Below are positions 3,676 through 9,336 of a DNA stretch of 46,233 nt, in pieces. Each line of letters opens with the position of its first letter. Within the stretch, counting starts at the first letter, position 1. This stretch comes from Escherichia phage vB_EcoS_ASO78B. A program made the translations under genes and the position numbers. The notes under the pieces are model-generated. The model was given only the letters and a program-made list of their open reading frames with translations, was not told where the DNA came from and did not search any database. Location: the sequence record MZ726796.1. The stretch is one strand, 5' to 3'.

Positions 3676-5088
3676 ATGTCAAAAATTGATGCATTAAACG
3701 CCTACATTCGCGACCGCGTGGCGAACAATAACCGGGCGATTCAGCAACAACGGCTTTGCGCTGGCGGGAAGAATCTCGACCAGAAGCGTGAGTTCATGTG
3801 GAAGGAGCTGGGCTACCCGCAGGAAATCACCGCAGAGATGTTCCGCTATGCCTATGAGCGACATCCAGCCGCCGCTGCTGGTATTAACCGCATTATTAAT
3901 AAATGCTGGCAGAAATACCCTGAAGTGGTAGAGGATGGTGAGGATGATAAGAACTCAACGCAGTGGGAGCTGTCCATCAACGACATGATGAAACGTGCTT
4001 ATCCGTTCATCAAAGAAGCTGACAAGCGCAACGCCATCAACCGCTATTCCGCCGTTATCCTGCAAATCCGCGATGGTAAGCAATGGAGTGAGCCGGTAGA
4101 CATCACCAAAACGCGCCGCATTAAAGATAAATCCATCGTCCGCTTTATTCCGGTGTGGGAAGAGCAACTACGCGTCAGTGCGTGGAATAACGACGAAACC
4201 AGCGAAGACTACGGAATGCCTGAGATGTACGAATATCAGGAAAGCGCCGTGGAAGACTTCGGCAGCGACGGCAAGCCTGAGCGTTCCGTGCAGATTCACC
4301 CTGACCGCATCATCATTCTGGCTGAGGGTAGTTTTGATGGCAGTATGTTCAGTGGCATCCCGATGCTGCGCGCTGGTTACAACAGCCTTATAGACATGGC
4401 TAAGGTTTCCGGTAGCTCCGCAGAAGGCTTCCTGAAGAATGCGAGCCGCCAGCTGGCAGTTAACTACACGAAGGATAACGTAACGCCAGCAAGCCTTGCT
4501 CAGTCAATGGGTGTCGATGTTGAAGAACTCACCGACATCATGAATGAGAACATTGAGGCACTGAATTCAGGCATCGACGCCGCTATGTTCACAATGGGGG
4601 CTGATGCAAAAGTTCTCGCCGTGACTCCAGCCGACCCGAAACCCACATGGGAAGTGGCTGCCAACCAGTTCGCCGCATCAATGGCGCTTCCATTCACCGT
4701 CATTTTCGGGCAGCAAACCGGACGCCTTGCGAGCGACGAAGACAAGATGCAGGAGGCGATGACCGCTAAGCAACGTCGCGAAACATGGGTTGACTATGTC
4801 ATCTCAATGTTCGTTGAGCGCATGATTCAGTTCGGCATCGTCGATAAAGCCCCGGCAAATGGCTACAAGGTTAAGTGGGATGACCTGCTGGCGCCATCAG
4901 AGCTGGATAAAGCGGAGTTGCTGGCTAAACTCGCCACTGCGAATAAGTCATTCTTTGATGCTGGTCAATCTGCGTTGTTGACCGTTGATGAGGCTCGCGG
5001 CATGGTTGGTATGGAGCCGATTGAACTCGACGAAAGCTATCGCGAAGACACACCACCGGAAGATGAAAATGAAGATAATCCGGTTTAA
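3676..5088 (+). CDS. portal protein
   Basis: 470-aa ORF between terminase and MuF-like head morphogenesis gene; size and position typical of siphovirus portal. Confidence 0.7.
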
Positions 5089-7368: not shown

Positions 7369-7779
7369 TTATTCCTCAATATCTCGCCAGTCCATATTGG
7401 ACTCGTTTTGTCCGTACACCCCACCGTAAAAGCCTTCACCCGGCCATACGATTTCGCCGCCATAATATCCGTTTGAATCATTGCGATAGTCAATCACCAT
7501 GTCACCTTTGTTGGTTGTAATTTTCGCTCCGTAGTATTGAACGTAATCACAACCTGGTATATCACCCAAGTCAGGCATTGCCAAATCTTCACACCCAATA
7601 ATAGTAAATGGCAACCCTAGCGCAGGCATTTCAACTGATTCAATCCATGTATACGAGCAGCAATCAGCATCAACGCGAACAACCAGTTCCTCACCATTAT
7701 CACAAACAAAAAGCATAGCCAGCTTATCTTCTGCAATTTTCACATCAACAATTTTCTTACCAATCAGTTTGTTTTCCAT
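7369..7779 (-). CDS. hypothetical protein
   Basis: 136 aa from ATG 7779 (MENKLIGKK..) with GAGGTG RBS; Gly/Tyr-rich C-terminus. Confidence 0.5.
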   Translation of the reverse strand: MENKLIGKKIVDVKIAEDKLAMLFVCDNGEELVVRVDADCCSYTWIESVEMPALGLPFTIIGCEDLAMPDLGDIPGCDYVQYYGAKITTNKGDMVIDYRNDSNGYYGGEIVWPGEGFYGGVYGQNESNMDWRDIEE

Positions 7780-7811
7780 CTTCATCACCTCATTCGTCAC
7801 TTGATGTAGAT

Positions 7812-7840: not shown

Positions 7841-7884
7841 TACCTGTTGTGATAGAATTAATCATTATTTGAACAGGAGGCAGA

Positions 7885-8163
7885 ATGAAACTATCGCAAC
7901 GCGGCAAAGATACGCTTGGAATCGCCGATGCCGTGGATATATCGCCTTACATCACCACTGAGACAACGCAGAGTCAGTTTGATGCGATGACAAGTCTCGC
8001 CACCGACATTGGCATTGACGCTTTCCGCAAATCAACACTTCTGAGGAAACACAACCTTCGCTGCTTCTCGTGTGCGGTTGCACATTTCATCGTGTGGGGC
8101 GAGAAGACCGACAACAAAGCAAAACGCAAAGCTGAAAAAGAGGTTTACTGGTATGGCTATTAG
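7885..8163 (+). CDS. T4/P22-type (GH24) lysozyme-like protein lacking the catalytic N-terminal region
   Basis: residues 28-75 align to the C-terminal half of P22 gp19-type lysozymes (QxQ[FY]DA..SL...IG..AF..ST.LR..NL), but about 45 aa containing the catalytic region are missing; strong AGGAGG RBS. Confidence 0.5.
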   Translation: MKLSQRGKDTLGIADAVDISPYITTETTQSQFDAMTSLATDIGIDAFRKSTLLRKHNLRCFSCAVAHFIVWGEKTDNKAKRKAEKEVYWYGY

Positions 8164-8617
8164 CAAAAACATGAAGGCATTTCTGAATATGCTGGCGTAC
8201 AGTGAGGGCACGGATAACGGGCGGCAGAAAACCAATAATCATGGATATGATGTGATTGTTGGTGGCTCACTGTTTACCGACTATTCCGATCATCCGCGCA
8301 AGCTGATTAGCCTGCCTAAGCTGGGCATCAAATCCACTGCTGCAGGGCGCTATCAGGTGCTGGCTAAGTTTTATGACGCGTATAAAAAGCAGCTGCGCCT
8401 GCCTGACTTCTCTCCCGCATCACAGGACGCTATTGCAATGCAGCTAATCCGTGAATGCAAGGCCACTGCCGACATCGAGGCAGGGCGCATTGCTGATGCA
8501 ATCCATAAATGCCGCTCCCGCTGGGCTTCATTGCCGGGTGCTGGCTATGGTCAGCATGAGCAGAAGCTGGATAAGCTGATTCAGGTATACAAGGATGCTG
8601 GTGGGGCTGTGGCATGA
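8153..8617 (+). CDS. R: endolysin, lambda R-like lytic transglycosylase
   Basis: near-colinear match to lambda R: AFLNMLAYSEGTDNGRQKT.NHGYDVIVGG.LFTDYSDHPRKL, WASLPGAGYGQ.E. Confidence 0.9.
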   Translation: MAISKNMKAFLNMLAYSEGTDNGRQKTNNHGYDVIVGGSLFTDYSDHPRKLISLPKLGIKSTAAGRYQVLAKFYDAYKKQLRLPDFSPASQDAIAMQLIRECKATADIEAGRIADAIHKCRSRWASLPGAGYGQHEQKLDKLIQVYKDAGGAVA

Positions 8618-8853
8618 AAAAGTTAAGCAACTGGCTGCTCGGCGCGTGGATTTCGTTCTGTTCACTGCTGCAGCTATGGCCTGATGCAATGATGCATGTG
8701 TGGGTAATGATGCCGGATGACCTGAAAGCGGCGCTGCCTCCAATTGTGGTCAAGGGTGTGAGCTATTCAATCATGCTGGTTGGTATCCTCGGCAAGATGC
8801 ACGGCATGAGGAAGGAAAACCGGAGGCTGCGCAATAATGTCGATTCTCGCTAA
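8614..8853 (+). CDS. holin (putative, two TMDs)
   Basis: 79 aa, two hydrophobic segments and a basic C-tail; ATGA overlap with endolysin stop. Confidence 0.55.
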   Translation: MKKLSNWLLGAWISFCSLLQLWPDAMMHVWVMMPDDLKAALPPIVVKGVSYSIMLVGILGKMHGMRKENRRLRNNVDSR

Positions 8854-9325
8854 ATACTGGCGACCGTTGGCAATTATTATAATTGTTGTGCTCTGCGCGC
8901 TATGGGTGCGTGGCGAAATCATCAGCTACGGCGACCAGCGATACGCAGACGGATATGAAAAAGCCGTCGCAGACCAGAAGGCTGCAGACGAACAAGAGGA
9001 GCAACGACGCAATGCAGAACTGCAAAAGATTCAGGCCGACGCACGGCAAAGGATTGACGCTGCGCGCAATGATGCTGTCAATGCTGCTGCTAAGTCTGGC
9101 AGGTTGCAGCAACAACTCGCAAACATCCGCAAGCAGCTCGTCGGATATTCCACCACTGAGTCCATTGGCAACCCAGCCGCAGAAACCGGAGTTTTGCTCT
9201 CCGGCGTGCTCAGCAAATCTGTCGAAAGAAATCGACAACTGGCAGATTACGCTGACCGGGCAAGGGAAGCAGGACTAGCGTGTGAGGCGCAATACAATTC
9301 GCTGCGCAATAAAAAAGCCCCGTAA
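8837..9325 (+). CDS. i-spanin (Rz-like)
   Basis: N-terminal TMD LAIIIIVVLCALWV followed by a charged coiled-coil-like periplasmic domain; immediately downstream of endolysin and holin. Confidence 0.75.
   Translation: MSILAKYWRPLAIIIIVVLCALWVRGEIISYGDQRYADGYEKAVADQKAADEQEEQRRNAELQKIQADARQRIDAARNDAVNAAAKSGRLQQQLANIRKQLVGYSTTESIGNPAAETGVLLSGVLSKSVERNRQLADYADRAREAGLACEAQYNSLRNKKAP
9069..9278 (+). CDS. o-spanin (Rz1-like lipoprotein), nested in i-spanin +1 frame
   Basis: MMLSMLLLSLAGC lipobox then Pro/Ser-rich 69-aa product, entirely inside the Rz-like gene. Confidence 0.7.
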   Translation: MMLSMLLLSLAGCSNNSQTSASSSSDIPPLSPLATQPQKPEFCSPACSANLSKEIDNWQITLTGQGKQD

Positions 9326-9336
9326 TGGGGCTTGCG
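9315..9336. terminator. bidirectional terminator
   Basis: hairpin AAGCCCC-GTAAT-GGGGCTT with A-run upstream and T-rich downstream; separates convergent units. Confidence 0.6.

What the first reader, a model, noticed from the sequence alone, without database searches (positions are those of the whole stretch)
7885..8163. Internally truncated GH24 lysozyme remnant upstream of the lambda R-type endolysin
The 92-aa ORF retains the C-terminal half of a T4/P22-type lysozyme but lacks about 45 residues that would hold the catalytic region. It has a strong AGGAGG RBS and overlaps the start of an intact lambda R-like transglycosylase. This looks like endolysin replacement, with the ancestral lysozyme decaying or repurposed.
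Basis: partly seen in the sequence, partly recalled or inferred. Interest (0 to 1): 0.45.

Follow-up and report, generated by a model that had tools for sequence, protein, structure and literature searches.

The report
Conserved catalytically dead half-lysozyme gene
The first gene of this phage's lysis operon encodes only the non-catalytic half of a T4/P22-type lysozyme; it is not a decaying relic, because more than 140 related phages keep it under purifying selection beside a different, working endolysin, and its job is still unknown.

Summary
ORF 7885-8163 (92 aa, AGGAGG ribosome-binding site, 11-nt overlap with an intact lambda-R-like endolysin) is a GH24 lysozyme homologue. It lacks 50 residues that hold the catalytic Glu/Asp/Thr and the beta-sheet lobe.

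The "endolysin replacement" reading is supported. Related siphophages carry a full 144-146-aa lysozyme at this position, directly before the same DUF7940 holin.

The "decaying" reading is refuted:
- All 36 copies examined are intact.
- dN/dS is 0.12 overall and 0.076 for the C-lobe, similar to the holin.
- About 141 phage records with the short gene versus 142 with this R orthologue.
- The short form persists down to about 45-50% identity.

A metagenomic sister clade keeps the half-lysozyme next to an unrelated endolysin (GH108 + PG_binding_3). That clade includes one full-length form with the catalytic residues mutated.

AlphaFold gives a confident all-helical model (pLDDT 94) that matches lysozyme C-lobes. 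It corresponds to T4 lysozyme's autonomously folding C-terminal subdomain.

Substrate-contact motifs are lost. A HxxxCxxC motif is kept and a YxYGY tail is gained.

Best reading: a repurposed, non-enzymatic lysis-cassette protein (pseudoenzyme). Its mechanism is only inferred; a partner-binding or lysis-timing role is my preferred guess.

The parts
7848..7858 (+). Conserved extended -10-like element TGTGATAGAAT (TGn + TAGAAT); candidate promoter of the lysis operon
   Evidence: Read directly from the sequence. Near-invariant in 34 of the 36 copies (single-base variants TGTGGTAGAAT, TGTGATAAAAT; Flyfo Tbat1_6 lacks it) and present as TGGTAGAAT in the GH108-linked clade. Not flagged by the consensus scan, which requires a -35. 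Function is inferred only.
7875..7880 (+). Shine-Dalgarno AGGAGG of the half-lysozyme gene
   Evidence: Conserved in almost all 36 copies.
7885..8163 (+). 92-aa half-lysozyme. Residues 1-11 are an A-helix stub, 12-18 a linker, and 19-92 the GH24 C-terminal lobe with H56/C60/C63 and the C-terminal EVYWYGY. There is no catalytic lobe.
   Evidence: dN/dS.
8153..8617 (+). Intact lambda-R-like (GH104) lytic transglycosylase endolysin, 154 aa. Its GAGG ribosome-binding site (8141-8144) and its ATG lie inside the 3' end of the half-lysozyme gene.
   Evidence: phrog_90, E=1.3e-56. 65.6% identity to lambda R. dN/dS 0.034. The junction is conserved.
8614..8853 (+). Holin, 79 aa, DUF7940 / phrog_13249. 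ATGA overlap with the R stop codon.
   Evidence: Skate annotates its homologue as a class II holin.
8837..9325 (+). i-spanin (Rz-like, DUF2514), 162 aa
9012..9278 (+). Embedded o-spanin (Rz1-like), 88 aa, with lipobox LSLAGC, in the +1 frame inside the i-spanin gene
   Evidence: ORF translation. Position matches Skate CPT_Skate_019.
9315..9333 (.). GC-rich hairpin at the end of the cassette, scored as a terminator for the converging minus-strand genes
   Evidence: Skate annotates a terminator at the same place.

Best explanation
The ORF is a real, translated, selectively maintained gene for a non-catalytic "half-lysozyme" (pseudoenzyme).

What is shown:
- It descends from the GH24 endolysin that relatives still use at this locus.
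- A lineage acquired a second endolysin between the lysozyme and holin genes: lambda-R-type here, GH108 in a sister clade.
- The GH24 protein lost its catalytic residues, its substrate-contact motifs, and then the whole N-terminal lobe.
- The remainder is the A-helix stub plus the C-terminal subdomain. This is the unit that folds on its own in T4 lysozyme.
- It is a 10.5-kDa soluble protein with no TM segment in a hydropathy scan, encoded by the first gene of the late lysis operon.

What is inferred:
- Because the C-lobe stays under strong constraint whichever endolysin follows, it does not act as a muramidase or as a specific partner of R.
- It most likely keeps a second, non-enzymatic activity that the ancestral lysozyme's C-lobe already had. 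The clade-specific HxxxCxxC motif marks this C-lobe.
- My preferred guess is binding to a component common to all these cassettes (the DUF7940 holin, the spanins or the envelope) to tune lysis timing or efficiency.
- Its translation also probably delivers ribosomes to the overlapping endolysin start.
For: Homology and missing catalytic lobe.

Fold: AF2 pLDDT 94.2, pTM 0.86, six helices. The best structural matches are the C-lobes of R21, AbLys1, P22 lysozyme and DLP12 endolysin, with TM about 0.7 normalised to the query.

Correspondence to T4 lysozyme: residue I19 aligns with T4L V75. The T4L C-terminal subdomain is residues 75-164 plus 1-12 and folds autonomously (bioRxiv 10.1101/353649).

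Selection:
- 36 of 36 intact copies.
- dN/dS 0.115-0.119, against holin 0.11-0.12, R 0.034 and Rz 0.27.
- C-lobe codons 19-88 give 0.076; the stub and linker give 0.335.
- Pairwise 0.08-0.37 in the GH108-linked clade.

Distribution: about 141 phage records carry the short gene and 142 carry R at >=80% identity. PHROG 10457 is a family of this length.

Ancestral state: full-length lysozyme, then DUF7940 holin, in phage 6991 and L058. The upstream region and 5' codons remain DNA-homologous.

Independence from the type of endolysin: L050, L052, L054 and L055 have a short form, then GH108+PG_binding_3, then DUF7940.

Intermediate: P0229 is full length with E15->Y and T33->R and sits next to a GH108 gene. 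AF2 predicts a two-lobe fold, pLDDT 92.4.

Shared derived characters of all non-catalytic forms: the 5-aa loop deletion, YNIG changed to [TA][DSA]IG, and a Y[YW]YGY tail found in 37 non-catalytic and 0 catalytic sequences.

HxxxCxxC is restricted to this clade: 76 of 343 retrieved proteins.

No hydrophobic segment: maximum 19-residue Kyte-Doolittle mean 0.78; pI 8.95.
Against: - No experiment or literature bears on the protein's activity, so the partner-binding or timing role is inference only.
- Distance-matrix correlations between the half-lysozyme, R and the holin across 35 genomes showed no co-evolution signal.
- The holin association cannot be separated from simple vertical synteny.
- The full-length "intermediate" P0229 is a single sequence from a 1,088-bp metagenomic contig and could be chimeric.
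- The clade tree rests on only 66-71 alignment columns.
- Database annotations call the protein "endolysin" or "lysozyme".
Confidence: 0.8

Rival explanations
1. Decaying remnant: the gene is a pseudogene left by endolysin replacement and is drifting toward loss.
For: The catalytic lobe is gone and a complete endolysin follows. The N-terminal 18 codons are relatively relaxed, dN/dS 0.335.
Against: - All 36 copies are intact with a conserved SD and ATG.
- dN/dS is 0.12 overall and 0.076 for the C-lobe.
- It co-occurs about 1:1 with R in roughly 140 genomes.
- It is retained at 51% identity in Flyfo Tbat1_6 and in the GH108-linked clade.
- The only "broken" variants (P0029, P0033) come from indel-rich long-read assemblies with 9-17 gap openings per 1.5 kb.
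Confidence: 0.03
2. Leader ORF only: the reading frame is kept because its translation is needed to load ribosomes onto the overlapping endolysin start. The peptide itself has no function.
For: The R ribosome-binding site and ATG lie inside the last 23 nt of the ORF and that junction is conserved. There is a 4-nt ATGA-type overlap in the GH108 clade.
Against: - A leader ORF needs no conserved amino-acid sequence or fold, yet dN/dS is 0.076 across 70 C-lobe codons and the AF2 model is confident.
- The YYYGY tail is conserved in the GH108 clade although it lies 6 codons upstream of the overlap.
- No RNA structure sequesters the R start, z=-0.11.
- Coupling could be achieved with a far shorter ORF.
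Confidence: 0.07
3. Still an enzyme: a minimal muramidase, as implied by the annotations "endolysin/glycosidase" and "has Ex5Dx8T motif".
For: The Pfam and PHROG hits are to lysozyme/endolysin families.
Against: - The whole N-lobe, with the E, D and T of the GH24 triad, is absent.
- The "motif" is E9/D15/T24. E9 also exists in full-length relatives six residues before their true catalytic Glu. The window has D9, and Flyfo has K9 and K24.
- The spacing is reversed relative to T4L E11-x8-D20-x5-T26 (established knowledge).
- The C-lobe substrate-contact elements are changed or deleted.
Confidence: 0.03
4. Trans-acting peptidoglycan-binding module: after holin triggering, the C-lobe enters the periplasm and binds murein to assist or localise the catalytic endolysin.
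For: By my recollection of the T4L-muropeptide adduct structure (unchecked here), the T4L C-lobe contributes the peptide-binding groove of the substrate site. The protein is basic, pI 8.95. Separately produced non-catalytic endolysin subunits are known from Gram-positive phages (own knowledge: CTP1L, CD27L, Lys170, PlyC).
Against: - The elements that contact substrate in GH24 (the [YF]N[IL]G motif and the GGKxxxGL-RRR loop) are invariant in catalytic relatives but replaced or deleted in every non-catalytic form.
- One partner endolysin (GH108) already carries its own PG_binding_3 domain.
Confidence: 0.12

Closest known systems
GH24 phage lysozymes (P22 gp19, T4 e, phage 21 R21; Pfam PF00959). 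The closest are the 144-146-aa endolysins of related siphophages, such as Klebsiella phage 6991 gp16.
   Same: Clear homology: 48-55% identity over the C-lobe to the closest relatives. Same genomic slot, upstream region and first eight residues. Same C-lobe fold and the same clade-specific HxxxCxxC motif.
   Different: It lacks the 50-residue N-lobe with the catalytic Glu, Asp and Thr. It lacks 5 residues of the conserved C-lobe loop. YNIG is changed to TDIG, and a WYGY C-terminal tail is gained. It is followed by a second, intact endolysin.
Engineered C-terminal subdomain fragment of T4 lysozyme (residues 75-164 + 1-12)
   Same: Almost the same structural unit: A-helix plus C-lobe. The natural junction maps to about T4L residue 7 joined by a 7-residue linker to residue 75. 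The T4L fragment folds autonomously.
   Different: The T4L fragment is a laboratory construct with marginal stability. This is a natural gene product under selection, and it has only about 14% identity to T4L.
SpmX muramidase domain (Caulobacter/Asticcacaulis), a GH24 domain co-opted as a localisation factor
   Same: A precedent for a phage-lysozyme fold reused for a non-lytic, protein-interaction role. Weak hits to NF051871 and to structure 6h9d.
   Different: SpmX keeps the complete two-lobe domain inside a large bacterial membrane protein. Here only the C-lobe remains, as a free-standing phage protein in a lysis cassette.
Non-catalytic endolysin subunits made as secondary translation products (CTP1L, CD27L, Lys170) or as separate genes (PlyC), from own knowledge
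   Same: A small, non-enzymatic, endolysin-derived polypeptide expressed together with a catalytic endolysin.
   Different: Those are cell-wall-binding domains of Gram-positive phage endolysins and associate with their own full-length enzyme. Here the fragment is half of a catalytic domain, in a Gram-negative phage, and is paired with unrelated endolysins (GH104 or GH108).
PHROG 10457 / GenBank "endolysin" or "lysozyme" entries (e.g. Skate CPT_Skate_015, KFS-SE2 A0A4Y5TNI8)
   Same: Orthologues, 84-93% identical, same length and position.
   Different: They are annotated as enzymes. The evidence here says they cannot be GH24 muramidases.

Membership tests
GH24 / PF00959 phage lysozyme (functional muramidase) | Significant match to the family profile | tested here: met
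   E=1.6e-9, 38.6 bits against a gathering score of 22.3, but only profile positions 55-112 of 125.
GH24 / PF00959 phage lysozyme (functional muramidase) | Catalytic general-acid Glu at the end of helix A (T4L E11; FEG in close relatives) | tested here: not met
   The segment is deleted. Residues 1-11 stop before the FEG position.
GH24 / PF00959 phage lysozyme (functional muramidase) | Asp and Thr of the triad (T4L D20, T26) and the beta-sheet N-lobe that forms half of the cleft | tested here: not met
   Absent from the alignment. The AF2 model has no strands. No N-lobe is encoded elsewhere in the window; best tblastn E=0.056.
GH24 / PF00959 phage lysozyme (functional muramidase) | C-lobe substrate-contact elements ([YF]N[IL]G; the GGKxxxGL-RRR loop) | tested here: not met
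   TDIG replaces YNIG, and there is a 5-residue loop deletion, in all non-catalytic forms. These elements are invariant in 7 catalytic sequences. The mapping to T4L contacts is from memory.
GH24 / PF00959 phage lysozyme (functional muramidase) | C-terminal lobe fold | tested here: met
   Foldseek matches to 3hde, 8app, 2anv and 4zpu, rmsd 1.3-2.9 A over 74-83 columns.
PHROG 10457 (short lysozyme-like proteins of Skatevirus-like phages) | Full-length match to a ~95-column profile | tested here: met
   E=2.7e-40, residues 1-90 against profile 1-95 of 95.
Antiholin / lysis-timing regulator (functional class, no sequence family) | Binds the holin and changes the triggering time | not testable with these tools
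   Context only: the first gene of the cassette, always with a DUF7940 holin that has no dual-start motif. Co-variation test was uninformative.
Secondary-translation-product endolysin subunits (CTP1L/Lys170 type) | Produced from an internal start within a full-length endolysin gene of the same phage | tested here: not met
   It is a separate gene with its own SD and no in-frame upstream extension. No full-length GH24 gene is in the window.

The most novel reading that the evidence does not exclude
The half-lysozyme is a new kind of soluble lysis regulator, an endolysin-derived pseudoenzyme that controls holin triggering or envelope disruption through its C-lobe. The HxxxCxxC site and the aromatic YxYGY tail would be the functional surfaces. 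The N-lobe would have been shed convergently at least twice once a foreign endolysin took over catalysis.
Probability: 0.25. Interest if true: 0.7.

Novelty: new variant of a known kind. Interest (0 to 1): 0.5.

Why it matters
- Annotation: more than 140 sequenced Salmonella, Escherichia and Klebsiella siphophages, including therapy and biocontrol candidates and the BASEL phages Bas77-80, are annotated as having two endolysins. One of the two cannot be an enzyme.
- Evolution: the locus shows a stepwise path from active lysozyme, to a full-length catalytically dead form, to a lobe-less form. It is a rare natural counterpart of the classic T4-lysozyme subdomain dissection.
- Phage lysis: a strongly conserved extra protein at the head of the lysis operon points to an uncharacterised player in Gram-negative phage lysis. 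It can be tested directly in genetically tractable E. coli phages.

Tried and rejected
1. Frameshifted "divergent" short forms (P0029 at 76% and P0033 at 60% identity) looked like evidence that only the frame matters. They come from indel-rich long-read assemblies in which the neighbouring genes are also broken, so they are artefacts.
2. Mantel-type correlation of pairwise distances (short vs R, short vs holin, R vs holin; 35 genomes) to look for co-evolution gave r from -0.22 to -0.04, none significant. It is uninformative, probably because of mosaic recombination.
3. RNA folding of the short/R junction, to test for a sequestered endolysin start, gave z=-0.11, so there is no structure.
4. A split-enzyme idea, with the N-lobe encoded elsewhere: tblastn of the N-lobe against the window found nothing.
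5. Many ~100-aa hits in the representative-protein search appeared to be further half-lysozymes. Most start inside helix C and look like truncated gene calls. P0089's viral relatives are full length (L046). P0089 and P0167 may be independent internal deletions but were not followed up.
6. The paper on phage S10 "two endolysins" concerns a different Jerseyvirus cassette and is irrelevant.
8. The sigma-70 consensus scan found no +-strand promoter upstream of the gene. The conserved TGnTAGAAT element was found by eye and by comparison.

Full report
**What is there**

The window is essentially a complete Skatevirus-like siphophage genome. Its closest relatives are Escherichia phages Bas77-79 and Sa179lw and Salmonella phage Skate.

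The reported ORF (7885-8163, + strand, 92 aa) starts at the first start codon after an in-frame stop. AGGAGG lies at 7875-7880, and a conserved TGTGATAGAAT element lies at 7848-7858.

The ORF ends 11 nt inside the next gene. The genes that follow are:
- 8153-8617: a 154-aa protein 65.6% identical to lambda R (phrog_90, E=1.3e-56).
- 8614-8853: a DUF7940 holin.
- 8837-9325: a DUF2514 i-spanin with an embedded o-spanin at 9012-9278.

The finding is therefore the first gene of a compact lysis operon.

**Is it a lysozyme fragment?**

Yes.
- Pfam PF00959 matches at E=1.6e-9, but only to profile positions 55-112 of 125.
- phmmer against solved structures hits P22 lysozyme, AbLys1, R21 and others, always in their C-terminal parts.
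- Alignment with the closest full-length relatives (P0037, P0038, phage 6991 gp16) shows identical first residues (MKLSQRGK), then a 50-residue gap, then colinear sequence from TTQxQFDA onward.
- The gap removes the FEG Glu, the YPDP Asp, the WT[IA]GYGH Thr and the beta-sheet lobe.
- DNA homology to the phage 6991 gene survives in the upstream region and first codons, and again from about codon 22.
- No N-lobe is encoded anywhere else in the window.

AlphaFold2 gives a confident all-helical model (pLDDT 94.2, pTM 0.86). Its best PDB matches are the C-lobes of GH24 enzymes, with rmsd 1.3-2.9 A over 74-83 columns.

Residue I19 aligns with T4 lysozyme V75. The T4L N-terminal subdomain is residues 13-74. 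The C-terminal subdomain is 75-164 plus the A-helix 1-12, and it folds autonomously in isolation (bioRxiv 10.1101/353649). The natural protein is thus almost exactly that subdomain.

**Is it decaying?**

No.
- In 35 related loci plus the window, every copy is an intact 92-codon ORF with an ATG (93 codons in Flyfo Tbat1_6) and a conserved SD and junction.
- Pairwise Nei-Gojobori dN/dS is 0.115-0.119. That equals the holin (0.11-0.12), is lower than Rz (0.27) and higher than R (0.034).
- The constraint is concentrated in the C-lobe: 0.076 for codons 19-88. The A-helix stub and linker are more relaxed, at 0.335.
- In the isolate database, about 141 records carry the short gene and 142 carry this R orthologue at >=80% identity.
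- Flyfo siphovirus Tbat1_6 keeps a 93-aa version at 51% identity, again followed by R, holin and spanins.
- Two apparently divergent variants (P0029, P0033) are frameshift artefacts of error-rich assemblies.

**Where it came from**

Related siphophages have a full-length catalytic lysozyme immediately followed by a homologous DUF7940 holin and spanin, with no second endolysin. Examples are Klebsiella phage 6991 and the P0074-bearing contig L058.

A profile search of 1.8 billion representatives found a third lineage: P0078, then P0226-P0228. These 90-98-aa proteins sit in syntenic 45-48-kb phage contigs. There the next gene is an unrelated endolysin (GH108 + PG_binding_3), followed again by DUF7940. 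Pairwise dN/dS within that clade is 0.08-0.37.

The same clade contains P0229, a full-length 147-aa form next to a GH108 gene. Its catalytic Glu is Tyr and its Thr is Arg. AF2 predicts a complete two-lobe fold (pLDDT 92.4).

All non-catalytic forms share three features:
- A 5-residue deletion in the GKVMNGL loop.
- Replacement of the invariant YN of YNIG.
- A Y[YW]YGY C-terminal tail, seen in 37 non-catalytic sequences and no catalytic one.

They group together on a C-lobe tree, with P0229 basal to the GH108-linked short forms. Within the GH108 clade the start codon and upstream region are the same, but the N-terminal junctions differ.

The most economical history is inactivation first, followed by shedding of the N-lobe, probably more than once. 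This rests on a short alignment and on one small contig for P0229.

**How it most likely works**

Shown:
- The product cannot be a GH24 muramidase.
- It is a small, basic, soluble protein (10.5 kDa, pI 8.95, no hydrophobic segment).
- Its C-lobe is under strong purifying selection irrespective of which endolysin follows.

Inferred:
- It performs a non-enzymatic task that does not depend on R.
- It probably does not use the canonical substrate groove, since the contact motifs are lost.
- The clade-specific H56-x3-C60-x2-C63 motif is shared with the nearest catalytic relatives and absent from 237 other GH24 proteins. Together with the gained aromatic tail, it is a candidate functional surface.
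- I favour binding to a constant component of these cassettes (the DUF7940 holin, which lacks a dual-start antiholin, or the spanins or envelope) to tune lysis. Translational coupling to the endolysin would be a secondary role.

I put about 0.8 on "functional non-catalytic protein" and about 0.25-0.3 on the specific regulator idea.

The rivals are a pure leader ORF, residual enzymatic activity, a decaying remnant and a trans-acting murein-binding module. They are weighed separately, and the first three are poorly compatible with the data.

**Comparison with what is known**

The protein is a homologue of GH24 lysozymes but fails every catalytic membership criterion. It is a full-length member of PHROG 10457, whose "endolysin" label is therefore misleading. 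The Skate GenBank note "Ex5Dx8T motif" is spurious: E9 also exists in full-length relatives beside the real catalytic Glu, the window has D9, and Flyfo has K at two of the three positions.

The Skate genome announcement names only the transglycosylase as the endolysin. Text searches found no study of this truncated family.

The nearest conceptual precedents are the engineered T4L C-terminal subdomain, the co-opted SpmX lysozyme domain, and the non-catalytic endolysin subunits of Gram-positive phages. All differ in architecture and context.

**Verdict**

The replacement scenario is supported, "decay" is refuted and "repurposed" is favoured. It is a new variant of a known kind. Interest is moderate (0.5): a specialist would be mildly to clearly surprised by a conserved dead half-lysozyme heading a lysis operon, and the question is directly testable in available E. 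coli phages. No function is demonstrated.

Noticed in passing
window 7848-7858: TGTGATAGAAT (TGn + TAGAAT, an extended -10-like element) about 27 nt upstream of the half-lysozyme ATG. It is near-invariant in 34 of the 36 copies (single-base variants; absent from Flyfo Tbat1_6) and appears as TGGTAGAAT in the GH108-linked clade. It is a likely promoter of the lysis operon, but the consensus scan misses it because there is no -35.
   Followed up: partly
window 8050-8073 (codons H56, C60, C63 of the 92-aa protein): The H-x3-C-x2-C motif is invariant in all short forms and in P0229, and present in the 38 closest catalytic lysozymes. It is absent from 237 other GH24 proteins retrieved. It sits at the N-terminus of predicted helix 61-75 and could be a metal or redox site.
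   Followed up: partly
L003 2501-2779 (Salmonella phage Skate CPT_Skate_015): The GenBank note "has Ex5Dx8T motif; endolysin_glycosidase" refers to E9/D15/T24 of the truncated protein. These are not the GH24 catalytic residues and are not conserved (the window has D9; Flyfo has K9 and K24). The annotation is probably wrong in many records.
   Followed up: yes
L053 95-538 (P0229): A full-length GH24 homologue with the catalytic Glu changed to Tyr and the Thr changed to Arg, but a confidently predicted two-lobe fold. It lies directly upstream of a GH108 endolysin. It looks like an intermediate pseudoenzyme, but it is known from a single 1,088-bp contig.
   Followed up: partly
P0089 (101 aa) and P0167 (110 aa), from the representative-protein search: Two other lysozyme-like proteins keep an A-helix-like N-terminus (MQLNEKGKQFI..., MKVSEKGLELLK...) joined directly to the C-lobe. 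They may be independent N-lobe reductions in unrelated lineages. Viral relatives of P0089 are full length (L046).
   Followed up: partly
P0077 (894 aa): Fifteen tandem 59-aa repeats resembling residues 44-85 of the half-lysozyme. Probably a concatemer or assembly artefact.
   Followed up: no
L004-L006, L008, L009, L012, L019, L022, L024, L031, L039 (about 3690-3870 in locus coordinates): In 11 of the 35 related loci the Rz match starts about 140-190 bases later than elsewhere, leaving extra sequence between the holin and the i-spanin; a 76-aa holin variant also occurs in six of the 37 copies, not mapped to particular loci. This suggests a small inserted ORF or a mosaic exchange in the cassette.
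   Followed up: no
L056 and L057 (ENA contig_319, contig_416): These long-read-style assemblies carry 9-17 indels per 1.5 kb relative to the window. They break the R and Rz genes and generate pseudo-divergent protein clusters (P0029, P0033, P0035) in the protein database.
   Followed up: yes
window 7369-7800 (- strand): The divergently oriented neighbour is a 143-aa DUF7448 protein (phrog_2650, unknown function). The 84-bp intergenic region between it and the half-lysozyme gene holds the conserved -10-like element.
   Followed up: no
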